A DNA stretch of 16,918 bases from positions 1 to 16,918 of the forward strand of contig JAZDNO010000017.1 of assembly GCA_043799545.1 (NCBI GenBank), given 5' to 3'. The DNA comes from Methanobacteriota archaeon (lineage in GTDB: Archaea; Thermoplasmatota; Thermoplasmata; SG8-5; DAIRED01). The first letter of the stretch is position 1. Every line of letters begins with the position of its first letter. Shown piece by piece: positions 2,136 to 14,642 of the stretch. Made by a program: the position numbers and the translations under genes. The notes under the pieces are model-generated. The model was not told the DNA's origin. It did not search any database and saw nothing but the letters and a program-made list of their open reading frames with translations.

Positions 2136-2682
2136 CCCCCATTTCGCGGACCATGTAAGCCAGCGCGTAACCCGCCGCGATGCCGGCGATGCTCCCGGTT
2201 ATCACCCTCATGAGGTTGGTGCTCTCGTAAGACGTGAACGCCTGCGTCAGCCCGTCGACTCCTATCGGTACGAACGCCAGGAGAAGCAAGAGGGGGTTGA
2301 ACTCCCTCCGCAGGACGAAGAAGGCCGCCATCCCCAGGGGCATACCAATGAAAATCGCAGTGCAGCGCGCGCAGAAGGGCATCTGGTTGCCGTTGAGGAA
2401 ATAGCTGCGCTCGTCTATCTGGTGGCAGTTGAGGTCTCCGGCCTGGTACAGCAATCGCACGGCTGGGTTTTCCATCTCGCCAATCGCACCTGCGTGCTCG
2501 CTGCCGCCCACGACGCCGTCCGCGCCAAAATCGACCGTGGCGTGCGGCAAGGCCAGTGGGGCGATGATTGCCGCGAGCGCCCATGCGAGCAGCAGCGCGA
2601 AGAACACGGTCTGCGCCTTGTTGGAAGCCATGTAACGTGGCAGGCCGGCGATGCCATCGATAGCGTCGCGCTTGAGACCCAT
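2101..2682 (-). CDS. DUF2085-type predicted membrane protein
   Basis: Several TM segments and the motif GDLNCHQIDERSYFLNGNQMPFCARCTAIFIG. Start is uncertain (2682 or 2631); 2682 fits a leaderless start about 30 nt from a minus-strand TTTATGTA at 2713-2706. The 3' end overlaps glmM by 35 nt. Confidence 0.8.
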   Translation of the reverse strand: MGLKRDAIDGIAGLPRYMASNKAQTVFFALLLAWALAAIIAPLALPHATVDFGADGVVGGSEHAGAIGEMENPAVRLLYQAGDLNCHQIDERSYFLNGNQMPFCARCTAIFIGMPLGMAAFFVLRREFNPLLLLLAFVPIGVDGLTQAFTSYESTNLMRVITGSIAGIAAGYALAYMVREMGAIVRARPRRQP

Positions 2683-2742
2683 GTGGGGTGCCAAGGGCAG
2701 CCCGATACATAAACAATACGCCTTACCCATGATTCATCTCAC

Positions 2743-2758
2743 CGAAACGCATTTATCC
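2743..2758 (+). promoter_or_regulatory. BRE/TATA candidate for the LarA-family gene
   Basis: CGAAAC-GCA-TTTATCC. The predicted TSS falls near ATG 2780. Confidence 0.35.
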
Positions 2759-2779
2759 GCACGCGGGACTCGGGGAGCA

Positions 2780-4036
2780 ATGAAGCGCCAAGTCGAGCTG
2801 CCTTACGGCGGCGGCACTCAGCGGTTTTCAATCGACGAGGAACGGCTCTCGGCAGTCGTTCTGCCCAGGGGCGGAGCTCCGGCAGGCCGCGGCTCGGTCA
2901 TCCCCGACGCGCTGGAGGCTCCGGTGGACGCCCCGGAGATATCTGAGTTTCTGGCGCCCGGCAGGAAGGTGCTGGTAATCGTCAACGACGGGACGCGCCC
3001 CACCCCCACGCCCGCTGTCCTGGAAGCGATATGGCCGCTTTTGAAGGCGACGAATTTCAGGTTCATGGTGGCCTGCGGGACTCACAAGGCACCGACGCCC
3101 CAGGAGAGGCCGAGGATTTTCGGCACCCTCCTGCCCGAAGCGGAGCGCCGCATCGCTGTCCACGACGCCAACGCCAAGGATTTGGTGTCCGTCGGCGAAT
3201 CGGAGCGCGGCAACCATTTCCGGATAAACAAAGCGTTCGACGAGTACGAGCGCGTGCTGGTGATAGGCTCGGTCGAGCCGCACTACTTCGCGGGCTTCAC
3301 GGGCGGGCGCAAGGGATTCTTGCCGGGCATCGCAGCGTACGACACGATAGAGCGCAACCACCGAAACGCCCTGGACCCGGCATCGCAAATCCTGCGTCTG
3401 GACGGAAACCCAGTCCACGACGAGATGGCGGAGATGGAAGCGGTTCTGAAAGCCCGGAAGCCAGATGGGATTTACACTATCCAGTCCATCGCGGCTGGCG
3501 GGACAGTGCGGCACGCGGCCTGCGGGGACATAACAAAGGCGTTCAGGTCGTTGATTCCTGCGGCGCTGGAGACGTTTTGCAGCCCGATTCCCCGCAAGAC
3601 GGATTTGGTGGTCAGCGCCGCCGTTGCCCCAGGCGACGCCTCGCTATACCAGGCGCAGAAGGCCATCGAGCATGCGAAGCCGGCGCTCGCGAAGGGTGGA
3701 ACGGCGGTCCTTGTTGCGAAGTGCCAGGACGGAATCGGTCCATCCAGCTTCTTCGACCTGCTTACTTCCGCGCCCACCCCCGAGGGGGTCATGGAGAAGA
3801 TTGGCCAGGGTTATAAGCTCGGGTACCACAAGGCGGCAAAGCTGGTCGAGCTGGTAGTTGCAGGAGGAGCGGTCCGCATAGTATCGTCGATTCAGCGGGA
3901 GGCTCTGGGGAGGGGATTCATGAAGGGCCACGCGAGCGTTCAGGAGGCCGTGGATGCAGCGCTCGCCGACGGCTGCGAATCGTGCACCGTGATGCCGGAG
4001 GGGAGCAACACCGTGCCGGTCGCCGGGAACAAGTGA
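2780..4036 (+). CDS. larA: LarA-family nickel-pincer-nucleotide-dependent 2-hydroxyacid racemase/epimerase
   Basis: VNDGTRPTP, GTHK, VEPHYFAGFTGGRKG, ERNH and LYQAQKA match the LarA catalytic and cofactor motifs. Start placed at ATG 2780 (MKRQVELPYG) after GGGGAG 2772-2777, not at the ORF-track start 2651. Confidence 0.88.
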   Translation: MKRQVELPYGGGTQRFSIDEERLSAVVLPRGGAPAGRGSVIPDALEAPVDAPEISEFLAPGRKVLVIVNDGTRPTPTPAVLEAIWPLLKATNFRFMVACGTHKAPTPQERPRIFGTLLPEAERRIAVHDANAKDLVSVGESERGNHFRINKAFDEYERVLVIGSVEPHYFAGFTGGRKGFLPGIAAYDTIERNHRNALDPASQILRLDGNPVHDEMAEMEAVLKARKPDGIYTIQSIAAGGTVRHAACGDITKAFRSLIPAALETFCSPIPRKTDLVVSAAVAPGDASLYQAQKAIEHAKPALAKGGTAVLVAKCQDGIGPSSFFDLLTSAPTPEGVMEKIGQGYKLGYHKAAKLVELVVAGGAVRIVSSIQREALGRGFMKGHASVQEAVDAALADGCESCTVMPEGSNTVPVAGNK

Positions 4037-4077: not shown

Positions 4078-5124
4078 TCAGATTCCCAGCACTTTCTTCG
4101 TAATCTGTCCGAACGCCAGGTCCTTTATCATCGCCATGTTGCCGACGCCGTACTCCTGGATGACGGGCATTGCGTCGATGAGGCCATTCTCCTTGAGATA
4201 CTGCACTTTCCGGACAGAGTCCATCTTCGCCTCGTCGTAGTCCCGGTACGCCGAGAGCATTATTGTCTCGTACTTGCGGGACGCTATGAAGAACGAGTTG
4301 TCGTTCACCACAGGCCCGGGGAGGGGACGCGAGAGGTCCAGCGGCTTCCTCGTGCTGTACCGGATGTGGTAGAAGCAGACGACCTTGAAACCCAGCTTGC
4401 GCAAATCGGGGACCAGCGCGGTCTTGATCAATCCCCCTGACTCCAGGCGCTTGCGAATCGCTGCCACCGTGTGCCTGCTGACCGGGAGCGCCTTTCCAAG
4501 CTCCGTGTCGGTCATCTCCGGATTTTCCACGAGCCCGAGGTATACCAGCTTCTCGGTCTTACCAAGCTCCACCGCTTCCCCGGGGACGAACTGCCGCGGC
4601 ACATCGGTCCGGTCCTCCATGTCGAAAGCGTCGGCCATAATCGGAGCGAAATCCATGAAACGGTCTATGCGGCTGATTGTGAACGGGAAAACGGCCTCAG
4701 TCGGAAGCGTCCCCTCCAGCAGGTTCATGCGGGCGAACGTCTCTGTCCTCACGTCGTTGATTCTGCAGGTGGCCGTGATGTTGCCGGCCAGGCTGAACGA
4801 GAAACCTTTGTTGTTCTCCCCTATGGAATAGAATATCTCGTCGAAGACCTCTATCATCTTCTTCGTCGTCTTCACGCGCTGCTCCAGCGGGATGGCGGGG
4901 TTGAAATCCGTGTGGATGACGACCAGCAGCTCGCATCCGAGGTTCTGCATCACCGGGATTCGCACGGTCCTGAAATACCCCCCGTGGTACAGCCGTTGGC
5001 GTATCGATGCCAGGGTGGACTGGTTCATTCCTATCTCCGCAGCCAGTTCCCTGTTGTTGAGAAGCGGGTTCTTGAAGGCGTGGTAAAGGACCTTCTTCTC
5101 GTTCCTCGACAGCCCGTCTTGCAT
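4078..5124 (-). CDS. Transcriptional regulator with two tandem Lrp/AsnC-like (wHTH + alpha/beta) modules
   Basis: Two homologous HTH segments (LSRNEKKVL..NPLLNNRELAAEIGMNQSTLASIRQRL and LGKTEKLVY..NPEMTDTELGKALPVSRHTVAAIRKRL), each followed by P.(L)..LG.-type linker and alpha/beta domain. Divergent from the aconitase operon. Confidence 0.8.
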   Translation of the reverse strand: MQDGLSRNEKKVLYHAFKNPLLNNRELAAEIGMNQSTLASIRQRLYHGGYFRTVRIPVMQNLGCELLVVIHTDFNPAIPLEQRVKTTKKMIEVFDEIFYSIGENNKGFSFSLAGNITATCRINDVRTETFARMNLLEGTLPTEAVFPFTISRIDRFMDFAPIMADAFDMEDRTDVPRQFVPGEAVELGKTEKLVYLGLVENPEMTDTELGKALPVSRHTVAAIRKRLESGGLIKTALVPDLRKLGFKVVCFYHIRYSTRKPLDLSRPLPGPVVNDNSFFIASRKYETIMLSAYRDYDEAKMDSVRKVQYLKENGLIDAMPVIQEYGVGNMAMIKDLAFGQITKKVLGI

Positions 5125-5336
5125 ATCCCGCCCCTATGTCGCAGGAGGGTTATGAATTTTTCCATTTCAAAATGCCGTTTGAACGTGAAACAATTTAAAC
5201 AAGGGCGAATAATGTAATAAATAATCGTTATTTTTACCGTTTTTACAGATATGATGCCGCATATATATCATTATGAGAATCCTTAAATAATCGAGCATGG
5301 ATTCCCCTGCAACCCTGCTTGGTAGGGGGGGTCACC
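5125..5336. promoter_or_regulatory. AT-rich divergent promoter region with palindromic operator candidates
   Basis: TTTAAA 5194-5199 (minus-strand TATA candidate); GAGAATCC-TTAAATA about 5275-5289 (plus-strand BRE/TATA); palindrome AAATAA-TCG-TTATTT 5219-5233; TAAATAATCG repeated at 5218 and 5284; G-rich RBS before ATG 5337. Confidence 0.6.
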
Positions 5337-7272
5337 ATGGGTAAAAACATCGTCGAGAAGATTCTGAAGGAGCATTTGAAGGTCGGAAAGTACAAGCCAG
5401 GCGAGGAAATCGGAATACGGATTGACCAGACGCTCACGCAGGACGCGACGGGCACCATGGCGTACCTCCAGTTCGAGGCCATCGGGATGAGCCGCGTCAA
5501 GACGGACCTTTCGGTGAGCTACGTGGACCACAACACCGTGCAGATAGGTTTCGAGAACGCCGACGACCACAGGTACCTCCAGACCGTCGCGGCCAAGTAC
5601 GGAGTGCTTTACTCGCGCGCGGGCAACGGCATCTGCCACCAGGTCCACCTGGAGCGCTTCGGAAAGCCTGGAACGACCTTGCTTGGTTCGGACAGCCACA
5701 CCCCGACGGGCGGCGGGATAGGCCAGATAGCCATCGGCGCAGGCGGCCTCGACGTGGCGCTCGCCATGGGCGGGGACCCGTTCTACCTCACGTGCCCGAA
5801 CGTGATAAAAATCAACCTGACGGGCCAACTAAAACCGTGGGTATCCGCGAAGGACGTCGTGCTGAAGATGCTGGAAATCTTCACTGTCAAGGGGAACGTG
5901 GGCACCGTCATGGAATACGGCGGGCCGGGCGTCGAGACCCTCAGCGTCCCGGAGCGAGCCACAATCACCAACATGGGCGCGGAGATGGGCGTCACGACAT
6001 CAATATTCCCAAGCGACAAGGTCACCAAGAAGTTCCTGAAGGCGCAGGGTCGCGTCCAGGATTACAGGCGCTTGAAGGCCGACGCGACGGCGAAATACGC
6101 CCGTGTCGTCGACCTCGACCTCTCGGCAATCGAGCCGCTGGCCGCCACGCCGCACAGCCCCGGCAACATCGCGACGGTCAAGTCCCTCGCGGGGATGCCG
6201 GTCGACCAGGTCTGCATCGGCTCCTGCACGAACTCATCGTTCAGGGACATGATGATAATCGCCAGCCTGCTCAAGGGCAAGCGCATCCACCCGAGCACGA
6301 GCGCGGTCATGGCGGCAGGGAGCAAGCAGGTGTTGACCATGCTGGCGGACAACGGCGCGCTCACAGACATCATCTCTGCGGGAGTCCGAGTCGCGGAGAA
6401 CGCCTGCGGATTCTGCATCGGCAACAGCCAGTCCCCCGCAGAGCAAGGCGATTTCAGTCCGAACCTCGAACCGCAACTTCGAAGCGCGCTCCGGCACGAA
6501 GGACGCGCAGGTCTACCTAGTGAGTCCAGAGACCGCCGCGGCGGCGATGCTCACGGGCAAGCTCACGGACCCGCGCGAGCTGGGCGTGCCGTACCCAATG
6601 GTCAAGATGCCATCTAGATTCTTGGCGGACGATTCGATGGTGCTTCCGCCGTCTCAAAATCCAGACGGCGTGAAGATTTACAGGGGTCCGAACATAGGCG
6701 AGCCGCCGAAGAACGACAAGATGCCGGACAACATCACCGCGGAGGTGACGATTAAGGTCGGCGACAAGACGACGACGGACCACATCATCCCCGCTGGAGC
6801 GAGGATGAAGTACCGCTCGAACGTCCCGAAGTACTCCGAGTTCCTCTTCGAGATGGTCGACCCGAAGTTCTACGAGAGGGCGATGGCCGCGAAGAAGGCC
6901 GGGAAGTTCAACGTGATTGTTGGAGGACTCAGCTATGGCCAGGGCTCGTCGAGGGAGCACGCGGCGCTCTGCCCGATGTACGTCGGCGTCAAGGCCGTGA
7001 TATCGAAGTCCTTCGAGCGCATCCACAGCGCGAACCTCATCAACTTCGGCATCCTGCCGCTGACGTTCGCGAACGAAGCGGACTACGACAAGGTGGCGCA
7101 GGGCGACGAGCTGGAGATTCAAAACATACACCATGTCCTGCAATCGAAGGGTAGGCTGATGGTCAAGGATAAAACAAAGAATTTCGAGTTCGAAGTCAAG
7201 TACGAGCTGACTGACCGGCAGAGGGACATCGTGTTGGCCGGCGGGATGCTCTGCAAGCTCAAGGGCAACTGA
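5337..7272 (+). CDS. acn: Single-chain aconitate hydratase (short, Aquifex/Clostridia-like type), interrupted by a +1 frameshift at the C5 run 6433-6437
   Basis: TQDATGT, GNGICHQ, DSHT, Fe-S ligands CIGSCTN and ENACGFCIG are in frame 3; [15 protein letters not shown] and the swivel domain are in frame 1. Removing one C gives a continuous 644-aa protein (..[24 protein letters not shown]..). May be a sequencing error, a pseudogene or recoding. Confidence 0.88.
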
Positions 7273-7287
7273 ATAGGAGATGAGAAT

Positions 7288-8505
7288 ATGGCAAACAAGA
7301 TAAAGGTCAAGACGACGATCGCGGAGATGGACGGAGACGAGATGACCAGGATAATGTGGCAGATGGTTAAAGATAAACTTCTGCTGCCGTACCTGGACAT
7401 GAACCTGGAGTACTACGACCTCGGTCTGAAAAAGAGGGACGAGACGGACGACAAGATAACGACCGACGCCGCCGAAGCGATTAAAAAGTACGGTGTGGGC
7501 GTGAAGTGCGCGACCATCACACCCAACAAAGACCGCATTAAAGAATACAACCTCAAGCAGGAGTGGAAGAGCCCGAACGGGACGATAAGGGCGGCGCTGG
7601 ACGGAACCGTCTTCAGGGCGCCAATCCTCGTGAAGAACATCCCTCCGGGGGTCAAATCATGGAAGAAACCAATCCACATCGGCAGGCACGCCTACGGCGA
7701 CGTGTACAAGAACTGCGAGTTCCGCGTTCCGGACGCTGGAAAGGCAGAGCTCGTCTTCACTGGCAAGGATGGGAAGGAGATGTTCCGCGGCACCATCCAC
7801 GAATTCAAGGGTCCGGGTGTCATCCAGGGAATCCACAACACCGACAAGTCCATCGCCTCGTTCGCTAAAGCCTGCTTCACCTACGCCTACGACATGAAGC
7901 TCAACCTCTGGTTCGGGACAAAGGATACGATTTCCAAGACGTACGACGGGCAGTTCAAGAAGGTGTTCCAAGAGGAATACGAGAAGAACTGGAAGCAGAA
8001 GTTCGCAGACGCGAAGCTGGAATACTTCTTCACCCTCATCGACGACACCATCGCCCGCATCATGAAGGCGGACGGCGGAATGCTATGGGCGTGCAAGAAC
8101 TACGATGGCGACGTGATGAGCGACATGCTCGGCTCGTCGTACGGGTCGCTGGCGATGATGACCTCCGTGCTCGTCAGCCCGAGCGGCTGGTACGAGTTCG
8201 AAGCCTCGCACGGCACTGTCCAGAAGCACTACTACAAGCACCTGAAAGGCGAGAAGACCTCGACGAACTCGATGGCGCTCATCTTCGCCTGGTCCGGATG
8301 CCTGAAGAAGCGTGGGGAGATTGACGGCACGCCTGAAGTGGTCGAATTCGCCAAGAAACTCGAGGCGGCGGCGCTGGAGACCATCGAGGGAGGAATAATG
8401 ACAGCCGACCTCATAAAAATCGCAGACCCCAGCCCGAAGAACAAGCAGGTCAACACAGAGGAGTTCATCGACGCGGTCCATGAGCACCTCAAGAAGAAAC
8501 TATAA
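7288..8505 (+). CDS. icd: Type II (IDH1-like) homodimeric isocitrate dehydrogenase, probably NADP-dependent
   Basis: [60 protein letters not shown] upstream. Confidence 0.95.
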
Positions 8506-8517
8506 GAGATGATTTGA

Positions 8518-9828
8518 ATGGCACAGAAGGCAATACGCGAGGCGGACGGCAAGAAGATGATCGCCCGCCTCCTGAAGGAATACAGCGCAGGCAAGCACTC
8601 GGTCGAGGACAAGTTCGTCCCGGTCGGGCCGGAAACCAACCTCGACAAGCTGCCGGGCCAGTACCCGTGGCTGAAGAAGGAGAAGCTCGTCGTCAAGCCC
8701 GACCAGCTCATCAAGCGCAGGGGCAAGAACAAGCTCATCCTCGTCGGCGCCTCGTTCGAAGAGGCGAAGAAGTGGATTAAGGAGAAGAGCAAGGGCCCGA
8801 TGACAATCTACGGCAAGTTCGATGCCAACGGCAAGCCGACCGACAAGGGCACCGTAGGCAAGCTGACCAACTTCATCATCGAGCCGATGGTGCCGCACAA
8901 GGAGTCCGATGAATGCTACGTCGCGATAACGAGCAACAACGACGGCGACTGCATCCTGTTCTACCACCGGGGCGGCGTGAACGTCGGCGACGTCGATGCC
9001 AAGGCATCGAGGCTGCAGGTGAAAATCGGCACGCTCCCGACTGCGGGGGAAATCGAGAAGGTGCTGCTGGGCAAGGTCCCGGCGGACCGCAAGAAACTCG
9101 TCGCGGGATTCATCGAGAGCCTCTTCAAGTTCTACGCGGACCTGAACTTCGCATACCTGGAAATCAACCCCATCGTTGTGACGAAGACCGCGGTGACGCC
9201 GCTGGATTTGGCCGCGAAGCTGGACGACACGGGCGCATTCGAATCCGCCAAGAAGTGGGGCGACATCGACTTCCCGACTCCGTTCGGCAGGACATTGACT
9301 CCGGAGGAGGCGTACATCGAGGAGCTCGATTCGAAAACTGGAGCTTCGCTCAAGCTGACGGTGCTGAACCCGGAGGGGCGCGTCTGGACCATGGTCGCTG
9401 GCGGAGGCGCCTCGGTCATATTCGCGGACACAATCACAGACCTGGGCTACATGTCCGAGATGGCGAACTACGGAGAATACTCGGGCGACCCGAACGAGGA
9501 GTTCACCTACAAGTACGCCAAGACCGTGCTTGATTTGATGACGAGGAAGAAGAACCCGAAGGGGAAGTTCCTCCTCATCGGAGGCGGAATCGCGAACTTC
9601 ACGGACGTGGCCAACACCTTCAAGGGCATCATTCGGGCGCTCACTGAATACAAAACCAAGCTCCAGGAAAACAAGGTGAGGATTTTCGTCCGCAGGGGCG
9701 GCCCGAATTACAAGGAAGGCCTGAGGAACATGAGGGAGGTCGGGGAGAAGCTCGGCGTCCCGATCGAGGTCTACGGCCCTGAAACGCACATGACTCGAAT
9801 CGTCAAGCTCGCGCTGGGGGGAAAGTAA
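8518..9828 (+). CDS. aclB: ATP-citrate lyase, ATP-grasp/citrate-binding subunit (N-terminal half of animal ACLY)
   Basis: KAIREADGK, LVVKPDQLIKRRGK, YLEINP, GASLKLTVLNPEGRVWTMVAGGGASV, ANYGEYSG, IGGGIANFT, RRGGPNY. Confidence 0.95.
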   Translation: MAQKAIREADGKKMIARLLKEYSAGKHSVEDKFVPVGPETNLDKLPGQYPWLKKEKLVVKPDQLIKRRGKNKLILVGASFEEAKKWIKEKSKGPMTIYGKFDANGKPTDKGTVGKLTNFIIEPMVPHKESDECYVAITSNNDGDCILFYHRGGVNVGDVDAKASRLQVKIGTLPTAGEIEKVLLGKVPADRKKLVAGFIESLFKFYADLNFAYLEINPIVVTKTAVTPLDLAAKLDDTGAFESAKKWGDIDFPTPFGRTLTPEEAYIEELDSKTGASLKLTVLNPEGRVWTMVAGGGASVIFADTITDLGYMSEMANYGEYSGDPNEEFTYKYAKTVLDLMTRKKNPKGKFLLIGGGIANFTDVANTFKGIIRALTEYKTKLQENKVRIFVRRGGPNYKEGLRNMREVGEKLGVPIEVYGPETHMTRIVKLALGGK

Positions 9829-11748
9829 ATGGCGAAGGCAAAGAAGGCAGTTGGAAAGAAGGCGACCGAAGCTAAGAACGCCGCACCGAAGACCGCAGCC
9901 GTGAAGCAGCCGGCGAAGAAGCCCGACTACCTGCTTTTCGACAGGAACACGCAGTCGTTCATCTACAACCTGCAGGTCAACGCGGCACAGCGCATGCTCG
10001 ACTTCGACTATGTGGCTGGACGGGAGCTGCCATCCGTCGCTGCGATAGTCAACCCGACCGGCAGCGACAGCTACCAGAAGCTGTTCTACGGACCCAAGGA
10101 GATTTTGGTCCCGGTATACAAGTCCCTGAAGACTGCCGCTGCGAAGTTCCCGAACGTCGACGTGATGATTAACTTCGCGTCGTTCCGGTCGGCGTACCCG
10201 TCTACGATGGAGGCGCTAGCAATCCCGCAGCTTAGGACGATTGTGATAATCGCCGAGGGCGTTCCGGAGCGAAGGATGAAGGAGCTCACGGCAGCGTCGA
10301 AGAAGCTCGGCAAGGTCCTCATCGGCCCCGCGACAGTCGGTGGTATCATGGGCGGTGCGTTCAAAATCGGCAACACCGGCGGGACGATAGAGAACATCAT
10401 CGAGTCCAAGCTGCACATCACTGGCTCGGTGGGCTTCGTGTCCAAGTCGGGCGGATTGAGCAACGAATGCTACAACATCGTCTCCCGAAACACGAACGGA
10501 GTTTACGAGGGCATAGCCATTGGCGGCGACAGGTTCCCTGGCTCCACGCTCATCGAGCACCTCCTAAGGTACGAGAAGAACCCTGATATCAAGATGCTAG
10601 TGTGCCTCGGGGAGGTTGGCGGAAGCGGCGAGTACGAGATAGTCGACGCGCTCAAGAAGAAGAAAATCACAAAGCCACTCGTCATGTGGGTCACGGGCAC
10701 TTGCTCGAAGGCGTTCAAGACCGAGGTCCAGTTCGGCCACGCCGGAGCGAAGGCCGATGCCGAAGCGGAGACCGCTGACGCTAAGAACAAGGCACTCAAG
10801 GCTGCGGGCGCGATAGTACCGGACTCGTTCGACGACTACGACCGGAAGATACGCGAGACGTACGAGAAACTCGTCAAGAAGGGCATCATCAAGCCGAAGC
10901 CGGAGCAGCCTGCGCCGAAGGTGCCGATGGACTACGCGACCGCGATGAAGACCAAGGTAATCCGCAAGCCGACCAACTTCATCTGCACAATCTCCGACGA
11001 CCGCGGCGAGGAGCTGATGTACCGAGACATGGCAATATCCGAGGTCTTCAAGGAGGACATCGGCGTCGGCGGCGTCATCAGCCTGCTGTGGTTCAAGAGG
11101 CGCCTGCCTCCGTACTGCACGAAGTTCATAGAGATGTGCCTCATGGTGACCGCGGACCACGGCCCGGCCGTCTCGGGCGCGCACAACTGCATCGTCACGA
11201 CCCGCGCCGGCAAGGACCTGATTTCGTCCGTGGTCTCGGGAATGCTGACCATCGGCCCCCGCTTCGGCGGCGCGGTCGACGGGGCGGCGCAGATGATGAG
11301 CGCCGCGCTCGACGCGGGCAAGACGCCGAAGCAGTTCATAGACGAGATGAAGGACAAGGGCGCGAACATCCAGGGTATCGGCCACCTCATCAAGTCCATC
11401 CACAACCCGGACATGCGCGTCGAGATAATCAAGGGCTTCGCGAAGAAGAACTTCAAGAAGACGGACGTGCTCGACTACGCGCTGGCTGTGGAGAAGCTGA
11501 CGACAATGAAGCGGGACAACCTCATCCTCAACGTCGACGGCTGCATCGGAGTCTGCTTCGCGGACATGCTGCGCTCGGAGATGCCCAGGGCAGAAGCCGA
11601 CGAGTACATCAAGATGGGCGCATTGAACGCGCTGTTCGTGCTCGGGCGCACGATGGGCATGATAGGCCACCACCTCGACCAGAAGAGGCTCAAGACTGCG
11701 CTGTACAGGCACCCGTGGGACGACATCGCGTACATGCTGGACCAGTAG
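9829..11748 (+). CDS. aclA: ATP-citrate lyase, CoA-binding/phospho-His/citryl-CoA lyase subunit
   Basis: LIGPATVGG, phospho-His QFGHAGA, ADHGPAVSGAHN, IGPRFGGA, NPDMRV, LNVDG, YRHPWDDI. Confidence 0.95.
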   Translation: MAKAKKAVGKKATEAKNAAPKTAAVKQPAKKPDYLLFDRNTQSFIYNLQVNAAQRMLDFDYVAGRELPSVAAIVNPTGSDSYQKLFYGPKEILVPVYKSLKTAAAKFPNVDVMINFASFRSAYPSTMEALAIPQLRTIVIIAEGVPERRMKELTAASKKLGKVLIGPATVGGIMGGAFKIGNTGGTIENIIESKLHITGSVGFVSKSGGLSNECYNIVSRNTNGVYEGIAIGGDRFPGSTLIEHLLRYEKNPDIKMLVCLGEVGGSGEYEIVDALKKKKITKPLVMWVTGTCSKAFKTEVQFGHAGAKADAEAETADAKNKALKAAGAIVPDSFDDYDRKIRETYEKLVKKGIIKPKPEQPAPKVPMDYATAMKTKVIRKPTNFICTISDDRGEELMYRDMAISEVFKEDIGVGGVISLLWFKRRLPPYCTKFIEMCLMVTADHGPAVSGAHNCIVTTRAGKDLISSVVSGMLTIGPRFGGAVDGAAQMMSAALDAGKTPKQFIDEMKDKGANIQGIGHLIKSIHNPDMRVEIIKGFAKKNFKKTDVLDYALAVEKLTTMKRDNLILNVDGCIGVCFADMLRSEMPRAEADEYIKMGALNALFVLGRTMGMIGHHLDQKRLKTALYRHPWDDIAYMLDQ

Positions 11749-11765: not shown

Positions 11766-11826
11766 TTTAATTTCTCGTTTTTTCTCTACTTTCTATTCTC
11801 GTTCAACAACCACTTTTATGTTTTTT
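11766..11826 (+). terminator. Pyrimidine/T-rich tract, probable terminator of the acn-icd-aclBA operon
   Basis: Multiple T runs (TTTTTT at 11778-11783 and 11821-11826) immediately after the aclA stop; consistent with archaeal oligo-U termination. Confidence 0.55.
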
Positions 11827-11954: not shown

Positions 11955-14642
11955 ATGATTGGATGGCGAACAGGCAATGTTTCTGGGAAGGTTCTGGCTT
12001 GCGTAATGGTCGGTTTGTTGTGCATGAACGTGCTCTTGTGTCTCTCATTCATAACCGAAGGAGCCAATCCTGGTGAATTGACCGCGGGAACGCTCCCGCC
12101 TGTGGCGATATTGAAGCAAAGTTACAGGGACACGTATATTGCAGATCTGGTCGGTCAGGAATTGGGATTCAATGCGAACGAATCGTACGATCTGGATGGA
12201 GTGATTACCAATTACTCGTGGAATTTTGGGGACGGGAACATCATCGGTGAATGCTGGGCCAACCACACCTATGCCGTGGCGGGGAATTACACGGTAACGC
12301 TGACCGTAACCGACGACGACGGCATGGTGGGCACAGACACGGCCATCGCGAACATCACCGGCCCGTCGCCCCCCGTCGCTGTAGTTGAACCGGGATTTCA
12401 AGAGATAACCGCATGGACGGCGGCCCATTTCGACGGGAGCCAGTCGCATACCGCTGAGGGAACGATTGTGACATACCAATGGATTTTCGGATTCGCCGAT
12501 TCTGTGACTGGAATCACGGCAAGCCGGACGTACGAAGTCCCGGGGAATTACACGGTCACACTGCGCGTGGAAAACTCGCAGGGGCTGAGCGCGACGGACA
12601 CCTGCTGCGTCAATGTGATACCCGGGCTCCCCCCGCAAGCTATTGCTGACCCCGCTTATCAGACCGCGGGGATAAACGAAACAGTCTCGTTCACTGCCAA
12701 CCGCTCGTACGACCCCGAGAATCTCTTGGGGGAATGTCGGTGGTACTTCGGGGACGACCAGATTTACAATGTCACCGGCGTGTTTGCCACACATAAATAC
12801 ACTATGTCTGGTGATTACTACGTCACGTTAATCGTAGAGGACATCGAAGGAATGTTGGATGTGGATACATGTAGCGTGCACGTCACTGGCACGCAAGCGC
12901 CAAGCGCTCATCCCGAGCCGCATTACCAGGCGGTCCGGGTCAATGAAATGGTCCGATTCAACGGAAGCCTATCTCACGACGCCGATGGCGAGATAGTGGC
13001 GTACAACTGGAACTTCGGCGATAATGCTACAGGTTCGGGAATCACTCCTTTGCATATCTATACGAGTTCTGGCAACTTCACCGTGACCCTAACCGTCGAG
13101 GACAACGACGGATACACAGACACAGTCTCTTGCGCGGTGAACGTCACTGGCACCCGAACCCCGGTCGCCGTGCCCAAGCCTGCAATACAGGAAAAGGCTC
13201 TCGAAGAGGCGGCCATTTTCGACGGCACTCTCTCTTACGATCCAGACGGGCCCATATCGTCGTACCTCTGGAATTTCGGTGACGGGTCTTCCGCCTCGGG
13301 GGCGGTCCAAGCGCATTACTACCAGTCACCTGGAGATTACACCGCGACATTAACCGTCGAGGACAGCGACGGCTTCCTTGGCATCAGTGAGTGCTTGGTG
13401 AAGATAACGGACGCGACCCCACCTGCGATTTCCGACGTGAATGTGGCCTCCGCGCATCCAAACGATAGGGATAGGCTGACAATCTATTGCATAGCTTTGG
13501 ATAACGTGGGGGTGGCTGAATGCACGCTCTCCTACTTGCACAACGGAAGCGCATGGACTACGATACCTATGACGAAGGAAACGACGAATGCCTACAGCGT
13601 CACTGCGGGGCCCGTGAACCAGAGCTTCACATTTTATATTAATGCGACGGATGGAAGCGGAAACACCGCAGTCTACTCTGACCATATCCTGATTGCCAAC
13701 ATCCAGTACGAGGTCAGCGTCGATATATTGCTGTCGGACATCGATTTGAAGCCCGGTTCCACCGTCCGGCTGTCAGGTGTTGTCATAATGAATAGCGCTG
13801 CCAGCATGACTGGTTTGTGGGTCATCGCATCCCTCAACGGCGAAGAGATTCACAGAACAAATGTAAACGTGGACGGGACCTTTGCATTGGAATTCGTCAT
13901 GCCCGAACCTGGGAAAGGGGAAAATCTCATAGAGGTTCTTCTGTTTGACGAGATCAACGGCGTGGCCGTGCCCATCGGATCTGCCGTCATACAAGGCAAG
14001 CAGCCATTCCCGTGGGTCATGGTGGGATTGGCCTCATTCGTGGGGGTATCTGTCGCGCTCGGTCTAATCACCGAGGTCGGAAAATACTGGCTAATACTAC
14101 TGTTCATGCCGCTGTACGCAAAAATGAAAGAAACTACCGAACAGGATATGTACATGCGGGGCAAGATTCATGGATATATCCTGGCAAACCCCGGGGAACA
14201 TTACAATGCAATTAAACGAGCCCTGGATATCAACAACGGCTCCTTAGCGTACCATTTACACCACCTCGAAAAAGAAGGGGGCATCAAGTCCATGAAGTAC
14301 GGAGTCCTCAAACGATTCTATCCGAAGGAGATGCTCGTGCCGAACGCTGGCCCGGACAGCCTTTCCGAAGCGCAGAAGATGATACTTAGGAAAATCAGGG
14401 AAACGCCTGGCATTTCGCAGAAAGACATCGCCGCGCTCCTCGGAATTAGTGCGTCCACGATAAATTACCATGTCGACAGGATGATCGACTTGGCAGTGGT
14501 CCGAAGGGAAAGAAAGGGCATGACGGTGCGGTACTACGAGACTGAATGTGTAAAAAACTGGATTCTGGACTCGTCTCGCGACAGGCAAGCCGGAGAGGAA
14601 GTTCATAAGCCCGAGATTGAGGGCGCGCACCCGGCCGGATAA
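11955..14642 (+). CDS. Transmembrane one-component regulator: signal peptide, 5 PKD repeats, 2 Ig-like domains, TM helix, cytoplasmic double winged-helix HTH
   Basis: Hydrophobic N-terminus; five W.FGD / Y...G.YTVTLTV.D repeats; many N-x-S/T sequons; TM FPWVMVGLASFVGVSVALGLI; then RGKIHGYILANPGEHYNAIKRALDINNGSLAYHLHHLEKEG and LSEAQKMILRKIRETPGISQKDIAALLGISASTINYHV. Confidence 0.88.
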   Translation: MIGWRTGNVSGKVLACVMVGLLCMNVLLCLSFITEGANPGELTAGTLPPVAILKQSYRDTYIADLVGQELGFNANESYDLDGVITNYSWNFGDGNIIGECWANHTYAVAGNYTVTLTVTDDDGMVGTDTAIANITGPSPPVAVVEPGFQEITAWTAAHFDGSQSHTAEGTIVTYQWIFGFADSVTGITASRTYEVPGNYTVTLRVENSQGLSATDTCCVNVIPGLPPQAIADPAYQTAGINETVSFTANRSYDPENLLGECRWYFGDDQIYNVTGVFATHKYTMSGDYYVTLIVEDIEGMLDVDTCSVHVTGTQAPSAHPEPHYQAVRVNEMVRFNGSLSHDADGEIVAYNWNFGDNATGSGITPLHIYTSSGNFTVTLTVEDNDGYTDTVSCAVNVTGTRTPVAVPKPAIQEKALEEAAIFDGTLSYDPDGPISSYLWNFGDGSSASGAVQAHYYQSPGDYTATLTVEDSDGFLGISECLVKITDATPPAISDVNVASAHPNDRDRLTIYCIALDNVGVAECTLSYLHNGSAWTTIPMTKETTNAYSVTAGPVNQSFTFYINATDGSGNTAVYSDHILIANIQYEVSVDILLSDIDLKPGSTVRLSGVVIMNSAASMTGLWVIASLNGEEIHRTNVNVDGTFALEFVMPEPGKGENLIEVLLFDEINGVAVPIGSAVIQGKQPFPWVMVGLASFVGVSVALGLITEVGKYWLILLFMPLYAKMKETTEQDMYMRGKIHGYILANPGEHYNAIKRALDINNGSLAYHLHHLEKEGGIKSMKYGVLKRFYPKEMLVPNAGPDSLSEAQKMILRKIRETPGISQKDIAALLGISASTINYHVDRMIDLAVVRRERKGMTVRYYETECVKNWILDSSRDRQAGEEVHKPEIEGAHPAG
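12093..13412 (+). repeat. Five tandem PKD-domain repeats (about 88 aa each)
   Basis: Recurring P.A...F....S.D..G....Y.W.FG(D)......H.Y...G.Y.VTL.V.D pattern in the translation. Confidence 0.85.

What the first reader, a model, noticed from the sequence alone, without database searches (positions are those of the whole stretch)
5337..11748. acn-icd-aclBA operon: ATP-citrate lyase in place of citrate synthase in an archaeon
Seen: four co-oriented genes with 0-15 nt gaps covering exactly acetyl-CoA + oxaloacetate <-> citrate <-> isocitrate <-> 2-oxoglutarate, with no citrate synthase or other TCA genes in the window. Established: ACL is the key rTCA enzyme, is reversible, and forms citrate with ATP gain in Desulfobacter; anaerobes often carry citrate synthase-acn-icd for glutamate synthesis. 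Inference, three options: (a) ATP-yielding citrate and glutamate synthesis, (b) reductive carboxylation of glutamate-derived 2-oxoglutarate to supply acetyl-CoA, e.g. for mevalonate lipids, (c) part of a full rTCA cycle. ACL alone does not demonstrate autotrophy.
Basis: partly seen in the sequence, partly recalled or inferred. Interest (0 to 1): 0.75.

Follow-up and report, generated by a model that had tools for sequence, protein, structure and literature searches.

The report
Archaeal aconitase-IDH-ATP-citrate lyase operon
An uncultured groundwater archaeon with no citrate synthase links acetyl-CoA plus oxaloacetate to 2-oxoglutarate through one operon built around ATP-citrate lyase; the enzymes are known, the operon is common in uncultured anaerobes, and its aconitase gene is frameshifted in this assembly.

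Summary
The four-gene cluster is real. It comprises acn (5337-7272), a type II NADP-icd (7288-8505), aclB (8518-9828) and aclA (9829-11748), with gaps of 15, 12 and 0 nt, a conserved archaeal TATA element in front and a T-run behind.

The ACL is the Methanothrix/eukaryote type, with all catalytic motifs present. The same gene order occurs in at least 44 of 80 related loci (Thermoplasmatota, Bathyarchaeia and several bacterial phyla). Where the type II icd is missing, another IDH type sits next to aclBA.

The genome (94% complete) has no full-length citrate synthase, no fumarate reductase, no SucD and no Ldh-type malate dehydrogenase, so a full reductive TCA cycle is refuted. It does have pyruvate carboxylase, pyruvate:ferredoxin oxidoreductase (POR) and two glutamate dehydrogenases. 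Across 301 genomes of the class, none of 29 ACL carriers has a citrate synthase, against 139 of 272 non-carriers.

Most likely the operon supplies 2-oxoglutarate and glutamate, with ACL standing in for citrate synthase. The reverse, citrate-cleaving direction is not excluded.

The scan found this operon type before on other DNA. It is a new member of a known kind and of moderate interest.

The parts
4078..5124 (-). Divergently transcribed TrmB-like regulator with two winged-helix domains
   Evidence: HTH_24 at residues 5-45 and TrmB at residues 185-235. An orthologue sits in the same divergent position in 16 Thermoplasmatota-type loci.
5125..5336 (+). AT-rich intergenic promoter region, with a TATA-like TTAAATAA at 5283-5290 and a G-rich Shine-Dalgarno-like run just before the ATG at 5337
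   Evidence: Sequence read directly. The element GAGAATCCTTAAATAA / GA(G/T/C)AATCTTTATATA is conserved at the same distance in relatives L005, L006, L023, L028 and L069. Promoter function is inferred.
5337..7272 (+). acn, aconitate hydratase (PRK07229 type, about 645 aa), interrupted by a +1 frameshift
   Evidence: NF005558 positions 1-370 match the first frame and positions 396-642 match the second. It is one frame and about 645 aa in relatives. dN/dS against L005 is 0.08 and 0.13, similar to the other operon genes.
6433..6437 (+). C5 homopolymer holding one extra base relative to all relatives (the frameshift site)
   Evidence: The CGFC Fe-S motif lies upstream at 6405. The [10 protein letters not shown] motif lies downstream in the other frame, with no start codon before it.
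7288..8505 (+). icd, homodimeric type II (eukaryote-like) NADP-dependent isocitrate dehydrogenase
   Evidence: NF006156 scores 641 bits (cut-off 335) and TIGR00127 scores 543 bits (cut-off 397).
8518..9828 (+). aclB, ATP-citrate lyase subunit with ATP-grasp and citrate-binding domains
   Evidence: PF24948 283 bits, PF16114 303 bits. It scores 493 bits to the human ACLY N-terminal part, 478 to Methanosaeta concilii 6HXI_A and 153 to Chlorobium 6HXJ_A.
9829..11748 (+). aclA, ATP-citrate lyase subunit with CoA-binding/phosphohistidine domains and a citryl-CoA-lyase module
   Evidence: It scores 827 bits to M. concilii 6HXI_B, 817 to human ACLY and 387 to Chlorobium 6HXJ_B. Motifs present: GHAGA (residue 303), DHGPAVSGAHN (443), GIGH (516), NVDG (568). 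A Lys/Ala-rich N-terminal extension of about 30 aa is seen.
11766..11800 (+). T-rich tract after the aclA stop codon (T6 at 11778-11783), a likely archaeal terminator
   Evidence: Sequence read directly. Terminator function is inferred.

Best explanation
This is a genuine operon, shared by horizontal transfer. It encodes the reversible linear path acetyl-CoA + oxaloacetate <-> citrate <-> isocitrate <-> 2-oxoglutarate. Its enzymes are a Methanothrix/eukaryote-type two-subunit ATP-citrate lyase, a short aconitase and a type II NADP-IDH.

The host is a heterotrophic Thermoplasmatota archaeon without citrate synthase, fumarate reductase, SucD-type succinyl-CoA synthetase, Ldh-type malate dehydrogenase or CODH/ACS. 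The operon is therefore its only recognisable citrate-to-2-oxoglutarate route.

The most likely working direction is anabolic. Pyruvate carboxylase would make oxaloacetate and POR would make acetyl-CoA. ACL would condense them to citrate while forming ATP, as it does in Desulfobacter. Aconitase and IDH would then deliver 2-oxoglutarate to the NADP-specific glutamate dehydrogenase and probably to a homocitrate-synthase-like enzyme.

What is shown: gene identities, operon conservation, and the absence of the other genes. What is inferred: the direction of flux.

In this assembly the aconitase gene carries a one-base insertion. The pathway works here only if that base is an assembly error or a minority allele.
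For: - Gene identities and catalytic motifs.
- Operon signals: gaps of 15, 12 and 0 nt, a conserved TATA element and a T-run.
- Conservation: acn-icd-aclB-aclA occurs in at least 44 of 80 loci across Thermoplasmatota, Bathyarchaeia, Bacillota, Myxococcota and Thermodesulfobacteriota.
- IDH stays linked: where the type II icd is absent, a monomeric IDH or a 398-aa Iso_dh lies beside aclBA. The ACL-IDH link therefore survives non-orthologous displacement.
- No citrate synthase: the genome has no full-length PF00285 protein.
- Class survey: none of 29 ACL-bearing genomes (10 families) has a full-length citrate synthase, against 139 of 272 ACL-free genomes. A Bathyarchaeia genome and an Elusimicrobia genome carrying the operon also lack citrate synthase.
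- No rTCA: no FrdA/SdhA (0 of 22 genomes of the order), no SucD, no Ldh_1 or Ldh_2 MDH, no CdhC.
- Anabolic partners present: adjacent PycB and biotin carboxylase with no OadB; an NADP-specific GDH and a second GDH; PorA; a short IPMS/homocitrate-synthase-family gene next to a LysK-like deacylase.
- Selection: purifying on all operon genes, dN/dS 0.05-0.13 against L005.
- Precedent: ACL used in place of citrate synthase in both directions in Desulfobacter hydrogenophilus, as stated in PMC7117926.
Against: - Direction cannot be read from sequence. ACL, aconitase and NADP-IDH are all reversible.
- Two bacterial genomes with the same four-gene operon (Dethiobacteria, and a deltaproteobacterial MAG) do carry full-length citrate synthases. 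ACL therefore does not replace citrate synthase everywhere.
- The genome has a second citrate enzyme set, citryl-CoA-lyase-like + HD + CitF.
- One short IPMS-family synthase could in principle be a Re-citrate synthase.
- The genome is 94% complete.
- acn is frameshifted as assembled, and no other bona fide aconitase exists; only LeuCD-type paralogues at about 31% identity were found.
- Sampling gave no real frameshift among about 366 conserved ORFs, so the assembly is not generally error-ridden.
Confidence: 0.55

Rival explanations
1. Reductive, citrate-cleaving direction. Glutamate from peptides is deaminated by GDH. The 2-oxoglutarate is reductively carboxylated by the NADP-IDH, re-using the NADPH that GDH made. 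Citrate is then split by ACL into acetyl-CoA and oxaloacetate, for acetate/ATP formation, lipids, aspartate and gluconeogenesis.
For: - The genome looks like that of a peptide fermenter: IorA, a Por/Vor-type enzyme, a fused 2-oxoacid:ferredoxin oxidoreductase and two GDHs.
- With no SDH or MDH, this would be the only route from glutamate carbon to C2, C3 and C4 building blocks.
- Type II NADP-IDH and this ACL type are the enzymes that carry out reductive carboxylation and citrate cleavage in eukaryotic cytosol (established knowledge).
- Some bacteria carry the operon together with a normal citrate synthase.
Against: - An ATP-dependent pyruvate carboxylase is present. No membrane oxaloacetate decarboxylase subunit was found. 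This suggests the cell has to make oxaloacetate rather than dispose of it.
- POR already supplies acetyl-CoA.
- All 29 archaeal ACL carriers sampled lack any other citrate-forming enzyme, so they would be glutamate auxotrophs if the path ran only in reverse.
- An AMP-forming acetyl-CoA synthetase sits beside the operon in nine relatives, which fits acetyl-CoA being an input.
Confidence: 0.3
2. The operon is part of a complete reductive TCA cycle for autotrophic CO2 fixation.
For: ACL, POR and a 2-oxoacid:ferredoxin oxidoreductase of broad type are present. Published MAG surveys label ACL/ACO/IDH in Thermoplasmatota as rTCA (PMC12220078).
Against: - No fumarate reductase flavoprotein in this genome or in any of the 22 genomes of the order searched.
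- No SucD.
- No Ldh_1 or Ldh_2 malate dehydrogenase.
- The genome is 94% complete with 0.85% contamination.
Confidence: 0.03
3. In this particular strain the operon is recently inactivated: the +1 frameshift in acn is real and the only aconitase is a fresh pseudogene. This concerns the state of the locus here, not the function of the operon family.
For: - The extra C is absent from all six relatives inspected.
- As assembled, the catalytic [10 protein letters not shown] segment cannot be translated in either ORF.
- No real frameshift was found among about 366 conserved ORFs mapped from a relative, so base-level errors are rare in this assembly.
Against: - Both halves of acn are under purifying selection like the rest of the operon (dN/dS 0.08 and 0.13), and there are no further lesions.
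- The site is a homopolymer, the classic place for a consensus error.
- Other readers' notes list a few more homopolymer frameshifts in this genome, including one in a ribosomal protein gene. I did not check these.
Confidence: 0.45

Closest known systems
Methanothrix (Methanosaeta) concilii heteromeric ATP-citrate lyase ACLY-A/B (PDB 6HXI, 6ZNW; Verschueren et al. 2019, as cited in PMC11237513)
   Same: Two-subunit archaeal ACL. AclA scores 827 bits over residues 31-637, with all catalytic motifs aligned. AclB scores 478 bits. It is as close to human ACLY as to this archaeal enzyme, and far from Chlorobium ACL.
   Different: Different phylum. The protein here has a Lys/Ala-rich extension of about 30 aa on AclA. 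The gene neighbourhood of the Methanothrix enzyme was not examined.
Desulfobacter (D. postgatei / D. hydrogenophilus) citric acid cycle, with ACL used in place of citrate synthase
   Same: An organism without citrate synthase in which ACL is the citrate-forming or citrate-cleaving enzyme and can run in both directions (PMC7117926; the ATP-yielding citrate synthesis is from my own knowledge of Moeller et al. 1987).
   Different: Desulfobacter has a complete cycle used for acetate oxidation or CO2 fixation. Here only the citrate-to-2-oxoglutarate arm exists, and no biochemical data are available.
ACL-type reductive TCA cycle gene sets (Chlorobium, Campylobacterota, Nitrospira)
   Same: An adjacent aclB-aclA pair, ferredoxin-dependent 2-oxoacid oxidoreductases and an NADP-IDH.
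   Different: The ACL sequence is distant (387 and 153 bits to Chlorobium). Fumarate reductase, SucD and MDH are missing. acn and icd are fused into the operon.
acn-icd-aclBA operons noted earlier by this scan in Thorarchaeota, Micrarchaeota and a Thermoplasmatales MAG, and ACL reports for Asgard, Bathyarchaeota, DPANN and Thermoplasmatota-E3 (bioRxiv 10.1101/2022.10.25.513756; PMC11976288)
   Same: The same four enzyme types in one operon in uncultured anaerobic archaea. Horizontal transfer was also inferred there.
   Different: This report adds three things: the lineage-wide mutual exclusion with citrate synthase, the IDH displacement pattern and the frameshift in this copy.

Membership tests
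Heteromeric ATP-citrate lyase (AclAB, EC 2.3.3.8) | Small subunit with an ATP-grasp domain and a citrate-binding domain | tested here: met
   PF24948 283 bits (cut-off 83) and PF16114 303 bits (cut-off 26.8). Full-length match to the ACLY N-terminal part.
Heteromeric ATP-citrate lyase (AclAB, EC 2.3.3.8) | Large subunit with a CoA-ligase domain carrying the phosphohistidine loop GHAGA | tested here: met
   PF00549. GHAGA at residue 303 aligns with 6HXI_B. The role of the histidine is established knowledge.
Heteromeric ATP-citrate lyase (AclAB, EC 2.3.3.8) | C-terminal citrate-synthase-like citryl-CoA lyase module fused to the large subunit | tested here: met
   PF00285 matches residues 430-627. 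DHGPAVSGAHN, GIGH and NVDG are conserved relative to M. concilii and human ACLY.
Heteromeric ATP-citrate lyase (AclAB, EC 2.3.3.8) | Catalytic activity: ATP- and CoA-dependent citrate cleavage, or its reverse | not testable with these tools
   Needs enzyme assays.
Reductive TCA cycle (ACL type) | Fumarate reductase | tested here: not met
   Only N-terminal FAD-motif matches to PF00890 in the own genome. PF02910 was found in 0 of 22 genomes of the order.
Reductive TCA cycle (ACL type) | Succinyl-CoA synthetase and malate dehydrogenase | tested here: not met
   The only Ligase_CoA domain is that of AclA. Ldh_1_C and Ldh_2 are absent. The genome is 94% complete. ACD-type ligases and malic enzyme were not searched.
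Reductive TCA cycle (ACL type) | 2-oxoglutarate:ferredoxin oxidoreductase | tested here: inconclusive
   A fused 548-aa 2-oxoacid:acceptor oxidoreductase alpha subunit scores 459 bits on TIGR03710, below the 483-bit cut-off. Its substrate is unknown.
Aconitate hydratase, PRK07229/TIGR01342 type | Single polypeptide of about 645 aa carrying domains 1-4, the Fe-S ligands and the SxRNFxGR motif | tested here: not met
   As assembled, the gene is split over two frames at 6433-6437. The motif segment has no start codon. With one C removed it would match relatives end to end.
Type II (eukaryote-like) NADP isocitrate dehydrogenase | Full-length match above the curated equivalog cut-off | tested here: met
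   NF006156 641 bits against 335; TIGR00127 543 bits against 397.
ACL replacing citrate synthase (Desulfobacter-like wiring) | No citrate synthase in the genome | tested here: met
   No full-length PF00285 protein; the same holds for 29 of 29 ACL carriers in the class sample. Caveats: a citryl-CoA-lyase-like protein with CitF and one IPMS-family synthase exist.
ACL replacing citrate synthase (Desulfobacter-like wiring) | Net citrate synthesis with ATP formation in vivo | not testable with these tools
   Needs labelling or enzyme kinetics.

The most novel reading that the evidence does not exclude
In whole orders of uncultured anaerobic archaea (Thermoplasmata lineages and Bathyarchaeia), a horizontally traded acn-IDH-aclBA cassette is the sole citrate node. 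It works as an ATP-conserving substitute for citrate synthase, or as a freely reversible bridge between the glutamate pool and the pyruvate/aspartate pools. If so, the routine scoring of aclAB in metagenomes as evidence for rTCA carbon fixation is systematically wrong for these groups.
Probability: 0.45. Interest if true: 0.55.

Novelty: new member of a known kind. Interest (0 to 1): 0.4.

Why it matters
ACL genes are widely used as marker genes for autotrophy in metagenome surveys. Here, and in the 22 genomes of the order searched, ACL sits in a genome that cannot run the reductive TCA cycle and has no citrate synthase. The marker then most likely reports ordinary 2-oxoglutarate and glutamate supply, or amino-acid carbon rerouting.

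The strict separation of ACL carriers from citrate synthase carriers across the class, and the persistence of the ACL-IDH link through three different IDH types, give a testable rule for reading such genomes.

The finding does not reveal a new enzyme or mechanism.

Tried and rejected
- **Split two-subunit aconitase (LeuC/LeuD-like).** Rejected. Relatives encode one 645-aa protein, and the break lies before the catalytic SNRNFE motif, which neither ORF can translate.
- **Programmed +1 frameshift.** Rejected as unlikely, because none of six relatives shares the extra base.
- **Error-ridden assembly as the explanation.** I mapped about 1,900 stop-to-stop ORFs from 800 kb of a same-order genome (G008) onto this genome. 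About 366 had strong matches, and all 4 frameshift candidates were artefacts: an rRNA region, gene junctions and an antisense ORF. This explanation was not supported, so the frameshift remains undecided.
- **Second aconitase or IDH in the genome.** None found by tblastn. Only LeuCD-type paralogues were found, at 31% identity.
- **Oxaloacetate decarboxylase sodium pump, as a sign of catabolic use.** OadB was not found, and the PycB-like gene is paired with a biotin carboxylase.
- **Wood-Ljungdahl pathway.** CdhC was not found.
- **Literature.** Ten searches found ACL reported in Asgard, Bathyarchaeota, DPANN, Thermoplasmatota-E3 and Penumbrarchaeia. None described this operon or the exclusion of citrate synthase in Thermoplasmata. 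The held library is incomplete, so this is not proof of absence.
- **AclA tree.** A FastTree of AclA shows Bathyarchaeia and several bacterial clades nested among Thermoplasmatota sequences. This suggests transfer, but the tree is unrooted, built with a quick method, and uses MAG taxonomy labels.
Full report
**Anatomy**

The window is a whole 16.9-kb contig (C17) of a 2.06-Mb, 31-contig MAG that is 94% complete with 0.85% contamination. ORF listing and Pfam/NCBIfam scans give the following genes:
- glmM at 765-2135.
- A LarA-family racemase at 2651-4036.
- A divergent TrmB-like regulator with two winged helices at 4078-5124 (minus strand).
- Four plus-strand genes: aconitase (5337-7272), type II NADP-IDH (7288-8505), aclB (8518-9828) and aclA (9829-11748).
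- A protein with five PKD domains and an HTH at 11955-14642.

The junctions inside the cluster are 15, 12 and 0 nt, with purine-rich ribosome-binding stretches. The 212-nt region upstream is 40% G+C. It carries a TTAAATAA element 47 nt before the ATG that is conserved in relatives. A T-rich tract follows the aclA stop codon.

**The frameshift**

The aconitase cannot be read in one frame.
- NF005558 positions 1-370 match the ORF that starts at 5319/5337.
- Positions 396-642 match the +1-frame ORF 6520-7272.
- The window has CAGTCCCCCGCAG, where six relatives have four bases in place of the five C.
- The relatives then read ...[26 protein letters not shown]... continuously.
- As assembled, the segment with the catalytic [10 protein letters not shown] motif has no start codon and would not be made.

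Both halves show purifying selection like the neighbouring genes. dN/dS against L005 is 0.08 and 0.13, compared with 0.05-0.07 for icd and aclBA. Any inactivation is therefore recent.

To judge assembly quality I mapped conserved ORFs from 800 kb of a same-order genome onto this genome. None of about 366 conserved ORFs showed a real frameshift. The four candidates were an rRNA region, gene junctions and an antisense ORF. The assembly is not generally error-prone.

Whether this one base is a homopolymer error or a real mutation stays open. I put it near even odds. No other true aconitase is present.

**What the enzymes are**

AclA scores 827 bits to Methanosaeta concilii ACLY-B (6HXI_B), 817 bits to human ACLY and only 387 bits to Chlorobium AclA. 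AclB behaves the same way. The phosphohistidine loop GHAGA and the lyase-module motifs DHGPAVSGAHN, GIGH and NVDG are present. This is a bona fide ACL of the archaeal/eukaryote-like type whose structure is already solved.

**Distribution**

A scan of species-representative genomes found 526 relatives of AclA. The best 80 loci are Thermoplasmatota, Bathyarchaeia and bacterial MAGs at 62-92% identity.

At least 44 of these loci have acn-icd-aclB-aclA in this order. Others are cut off by contig ends.

Where the type II icd is missing, another IDH follows aclA: a monomeric IDH (PF03971, 746 aa) in about 11 loci, or a 398-aa Iso_dh in a few. The ACL-IDH-aconitase link is thus kept through non-orthologous replacement. 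This is good evidence that the genes work together.

The TrmB-like regulator is conserved in the divergent position in 16 Thermoplasmatota-type loci.

An AclA tree places Bathyarchaeia, Trueperaceae and Bacillota clades among Thermoplasmatota sequences. That fits repeated transfer of the cassette. The caveats are that the tree was built with a quick method, is unrooted, and uses MAG labels.

**Genome inventory**

| Feature | Result |
|---|---|
| Full-length citrate synthase | Not found |
| Other PF00285 protein | One 270-aa citryl-CoA-lyase-like gene, next to an HD protein and CitF |
| Fumarate reductase/SDH flavoprotein | Not found; 0 of 22 genomes of the order |
| SucD | Not found |
| Ldh_1 or Ldh_2 malate dehydrogenase | Not found |
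| CdhC | Not found |
| 2-oxoacid:ferredoxin oxidoreductases | PorA, a Por/Vor-type enzyme, IorA and a fused broad-type enzyme |
| Class I fumarase | Present |
| Glutamate dehydrogenases | Two, one scoring as NADP-specific |
| Pyruvate carboxylase | PycB plus adjacent biotin carboxylase; no OadB |
| Short IPMS/homocitrate-synthase-family gene | Present, next to a LysK-like deacylase |

A complete reductive TCA cycle is therefore refuted. The organism looks like a heterotroph.

**Lineage test of "ACL in place of citrate synthase"**

In an even sample of 301 genomes of the class, 29 carry ACL. These fall in 10 families and include 18 of 21 other genomes of the own order.

None of the 29 has a full-length citrate synthase. 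Their best PF00285 E-values are 1e-17 to 1e-46, which are the AclA tail or the lyase-like protein. In contrast, 139 of the 272 ACL-free genomes have one, with E-values of 1e-77 or lower.

Two of the 139 (G098, G211) are unpublished genomes. The conclusion does not depend on them.

Related genomes are not independent, so the effective contrast is about 10 families against about 15.

Outside the class the picture is mixed:
- A Bathyarchaeia genome and an Elusimicrobia genome carrying the operon lack citrate synthase.
- A Dethiobacteria genome and a deltaproteobacterial genome with the same operon have it.
- So does a Trueperaceae genome in which no acn or type II icd accompanies aclBA.

The replacement therefore holds in the archaeal lineages examined but is not universal.

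**Direction**

All three reactions are reversible, and sequence cannot settle the direction.

I favour synthesis of 2-oxoglutarate, at about 0.55, for these reasons:
- The cell has an ATP-dependent pyruvate carboxylase and no other obvious use for citrate.
- It has no alternative route to 2-oxoglutarate.
- It has an NADP-type GDH and a homocitrate-synthase-like consumer of 2-oxoglutarate.
- Relatives place an acetyl-CoA synthetase next to the operon.
- Desulfobacter gives the precedent for ACL acting in place of citrate synthase (PMC7117926).

The reverse direction is glutamate to 2-oxoglutarate to citrate to acetyl-CoA plus oxaloacetate. It would be redox-neutral for NADPH and would be the only way to turn glutamate carbon into C2-C4 units here. 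I give it about 0.3, and use in both directions is plausible.

**Novelty**

ACL in Asgard, Bathyarchaeota, DPANN and Thermoplasmatota is published. This scan has already reported the same operon type in Thorarchaeota, Micrarchaeota and a Thermoplasmatales MAG.

I found no paper describing the exclusion of citrate synthase in Thermoplasmata or the IDH displacement pattern, but the searchable library is incomplete.

This is a new member of a known kind. Its practical value is as a warning against reading aclAB as a marker of autotrophy.

Noticed in passing
window 11955-14642 (+): An 895-aa protein with five PKD domains, followed by an HVO_0163-type HTH and a MarR/HTH_24 winged helix. Surface-type repeats joined to DNA-binding domains is an unusual combination.
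   Followed up: no
own genome C10:183790-186686 (L004 7791-10687): A tight cluster of a 270-aa citryl-CoA-lyase-like protein (NF004869, 287 bits against a cut-off of 212), an HD-domain protein and a full-length CitF (TIGR01584, 546 against 501). No citD or citE is nearby. This is a possible carrier-protein-independent citrate lyase. The lyase-like gene is present in nearly all genomes of the order. Earlier readers of this genome also noted it.
   Followed up: partly
window 2651-4036 (+): A LarA-family nickel-pincer racemase homologue. Its best match is the malate racemase LarAH6 family, at 302 bits, below the 500-bit cut-off. It lies two genes upstream of the operon. The position is conserved in L005, and the gene lies within 10 kb of aclBA in L068 and L074.
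   Followed up: no
L056 11844-14081; L074 5114-6307; 13 and 4 loci respectively: Where the type II icd is absent from the operon, a monomeric IDH (PF03971) or a 398-aa Iso_dh lies directly after aclA.
   Followed up: yes
L007 2066-4018 (-) and eight related loci; L017 14413-16299, L020 17540-18196: In one Thermoplasmatota clade, an AMP-forming acetyl-CoA synthetase sits beside the TrmB-like regulator upstream of the operon, and iorA/iorB sit downstream.
   Followed up: partly
G033:C11:885534-886740, G021:C11:310088-311294, G072:C61:6583-7783, G053:C43:10455-11654: Several genomes of the same order carry a SucC/SucD-like pair within 4-9 kb of aclBA. One member also gives a weak Citrate_bind match. 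The own genus lacks this pair.
   Followed up: no
L014, L024, L042, L052, L073: Several related long-contig MAGs show aconitase, icd, aclB or aclA split into HSPs in different frames. Frameshifted copies of these genes are therefore not rare in public MAGs.
   Followed up: no
own genome C30:102100-103100: This stretch is highly conserved with G008 at DNA level and has no long ORF. It behaves like an rRNA gene and produced false frameshift candidates.
   Followed up: partly
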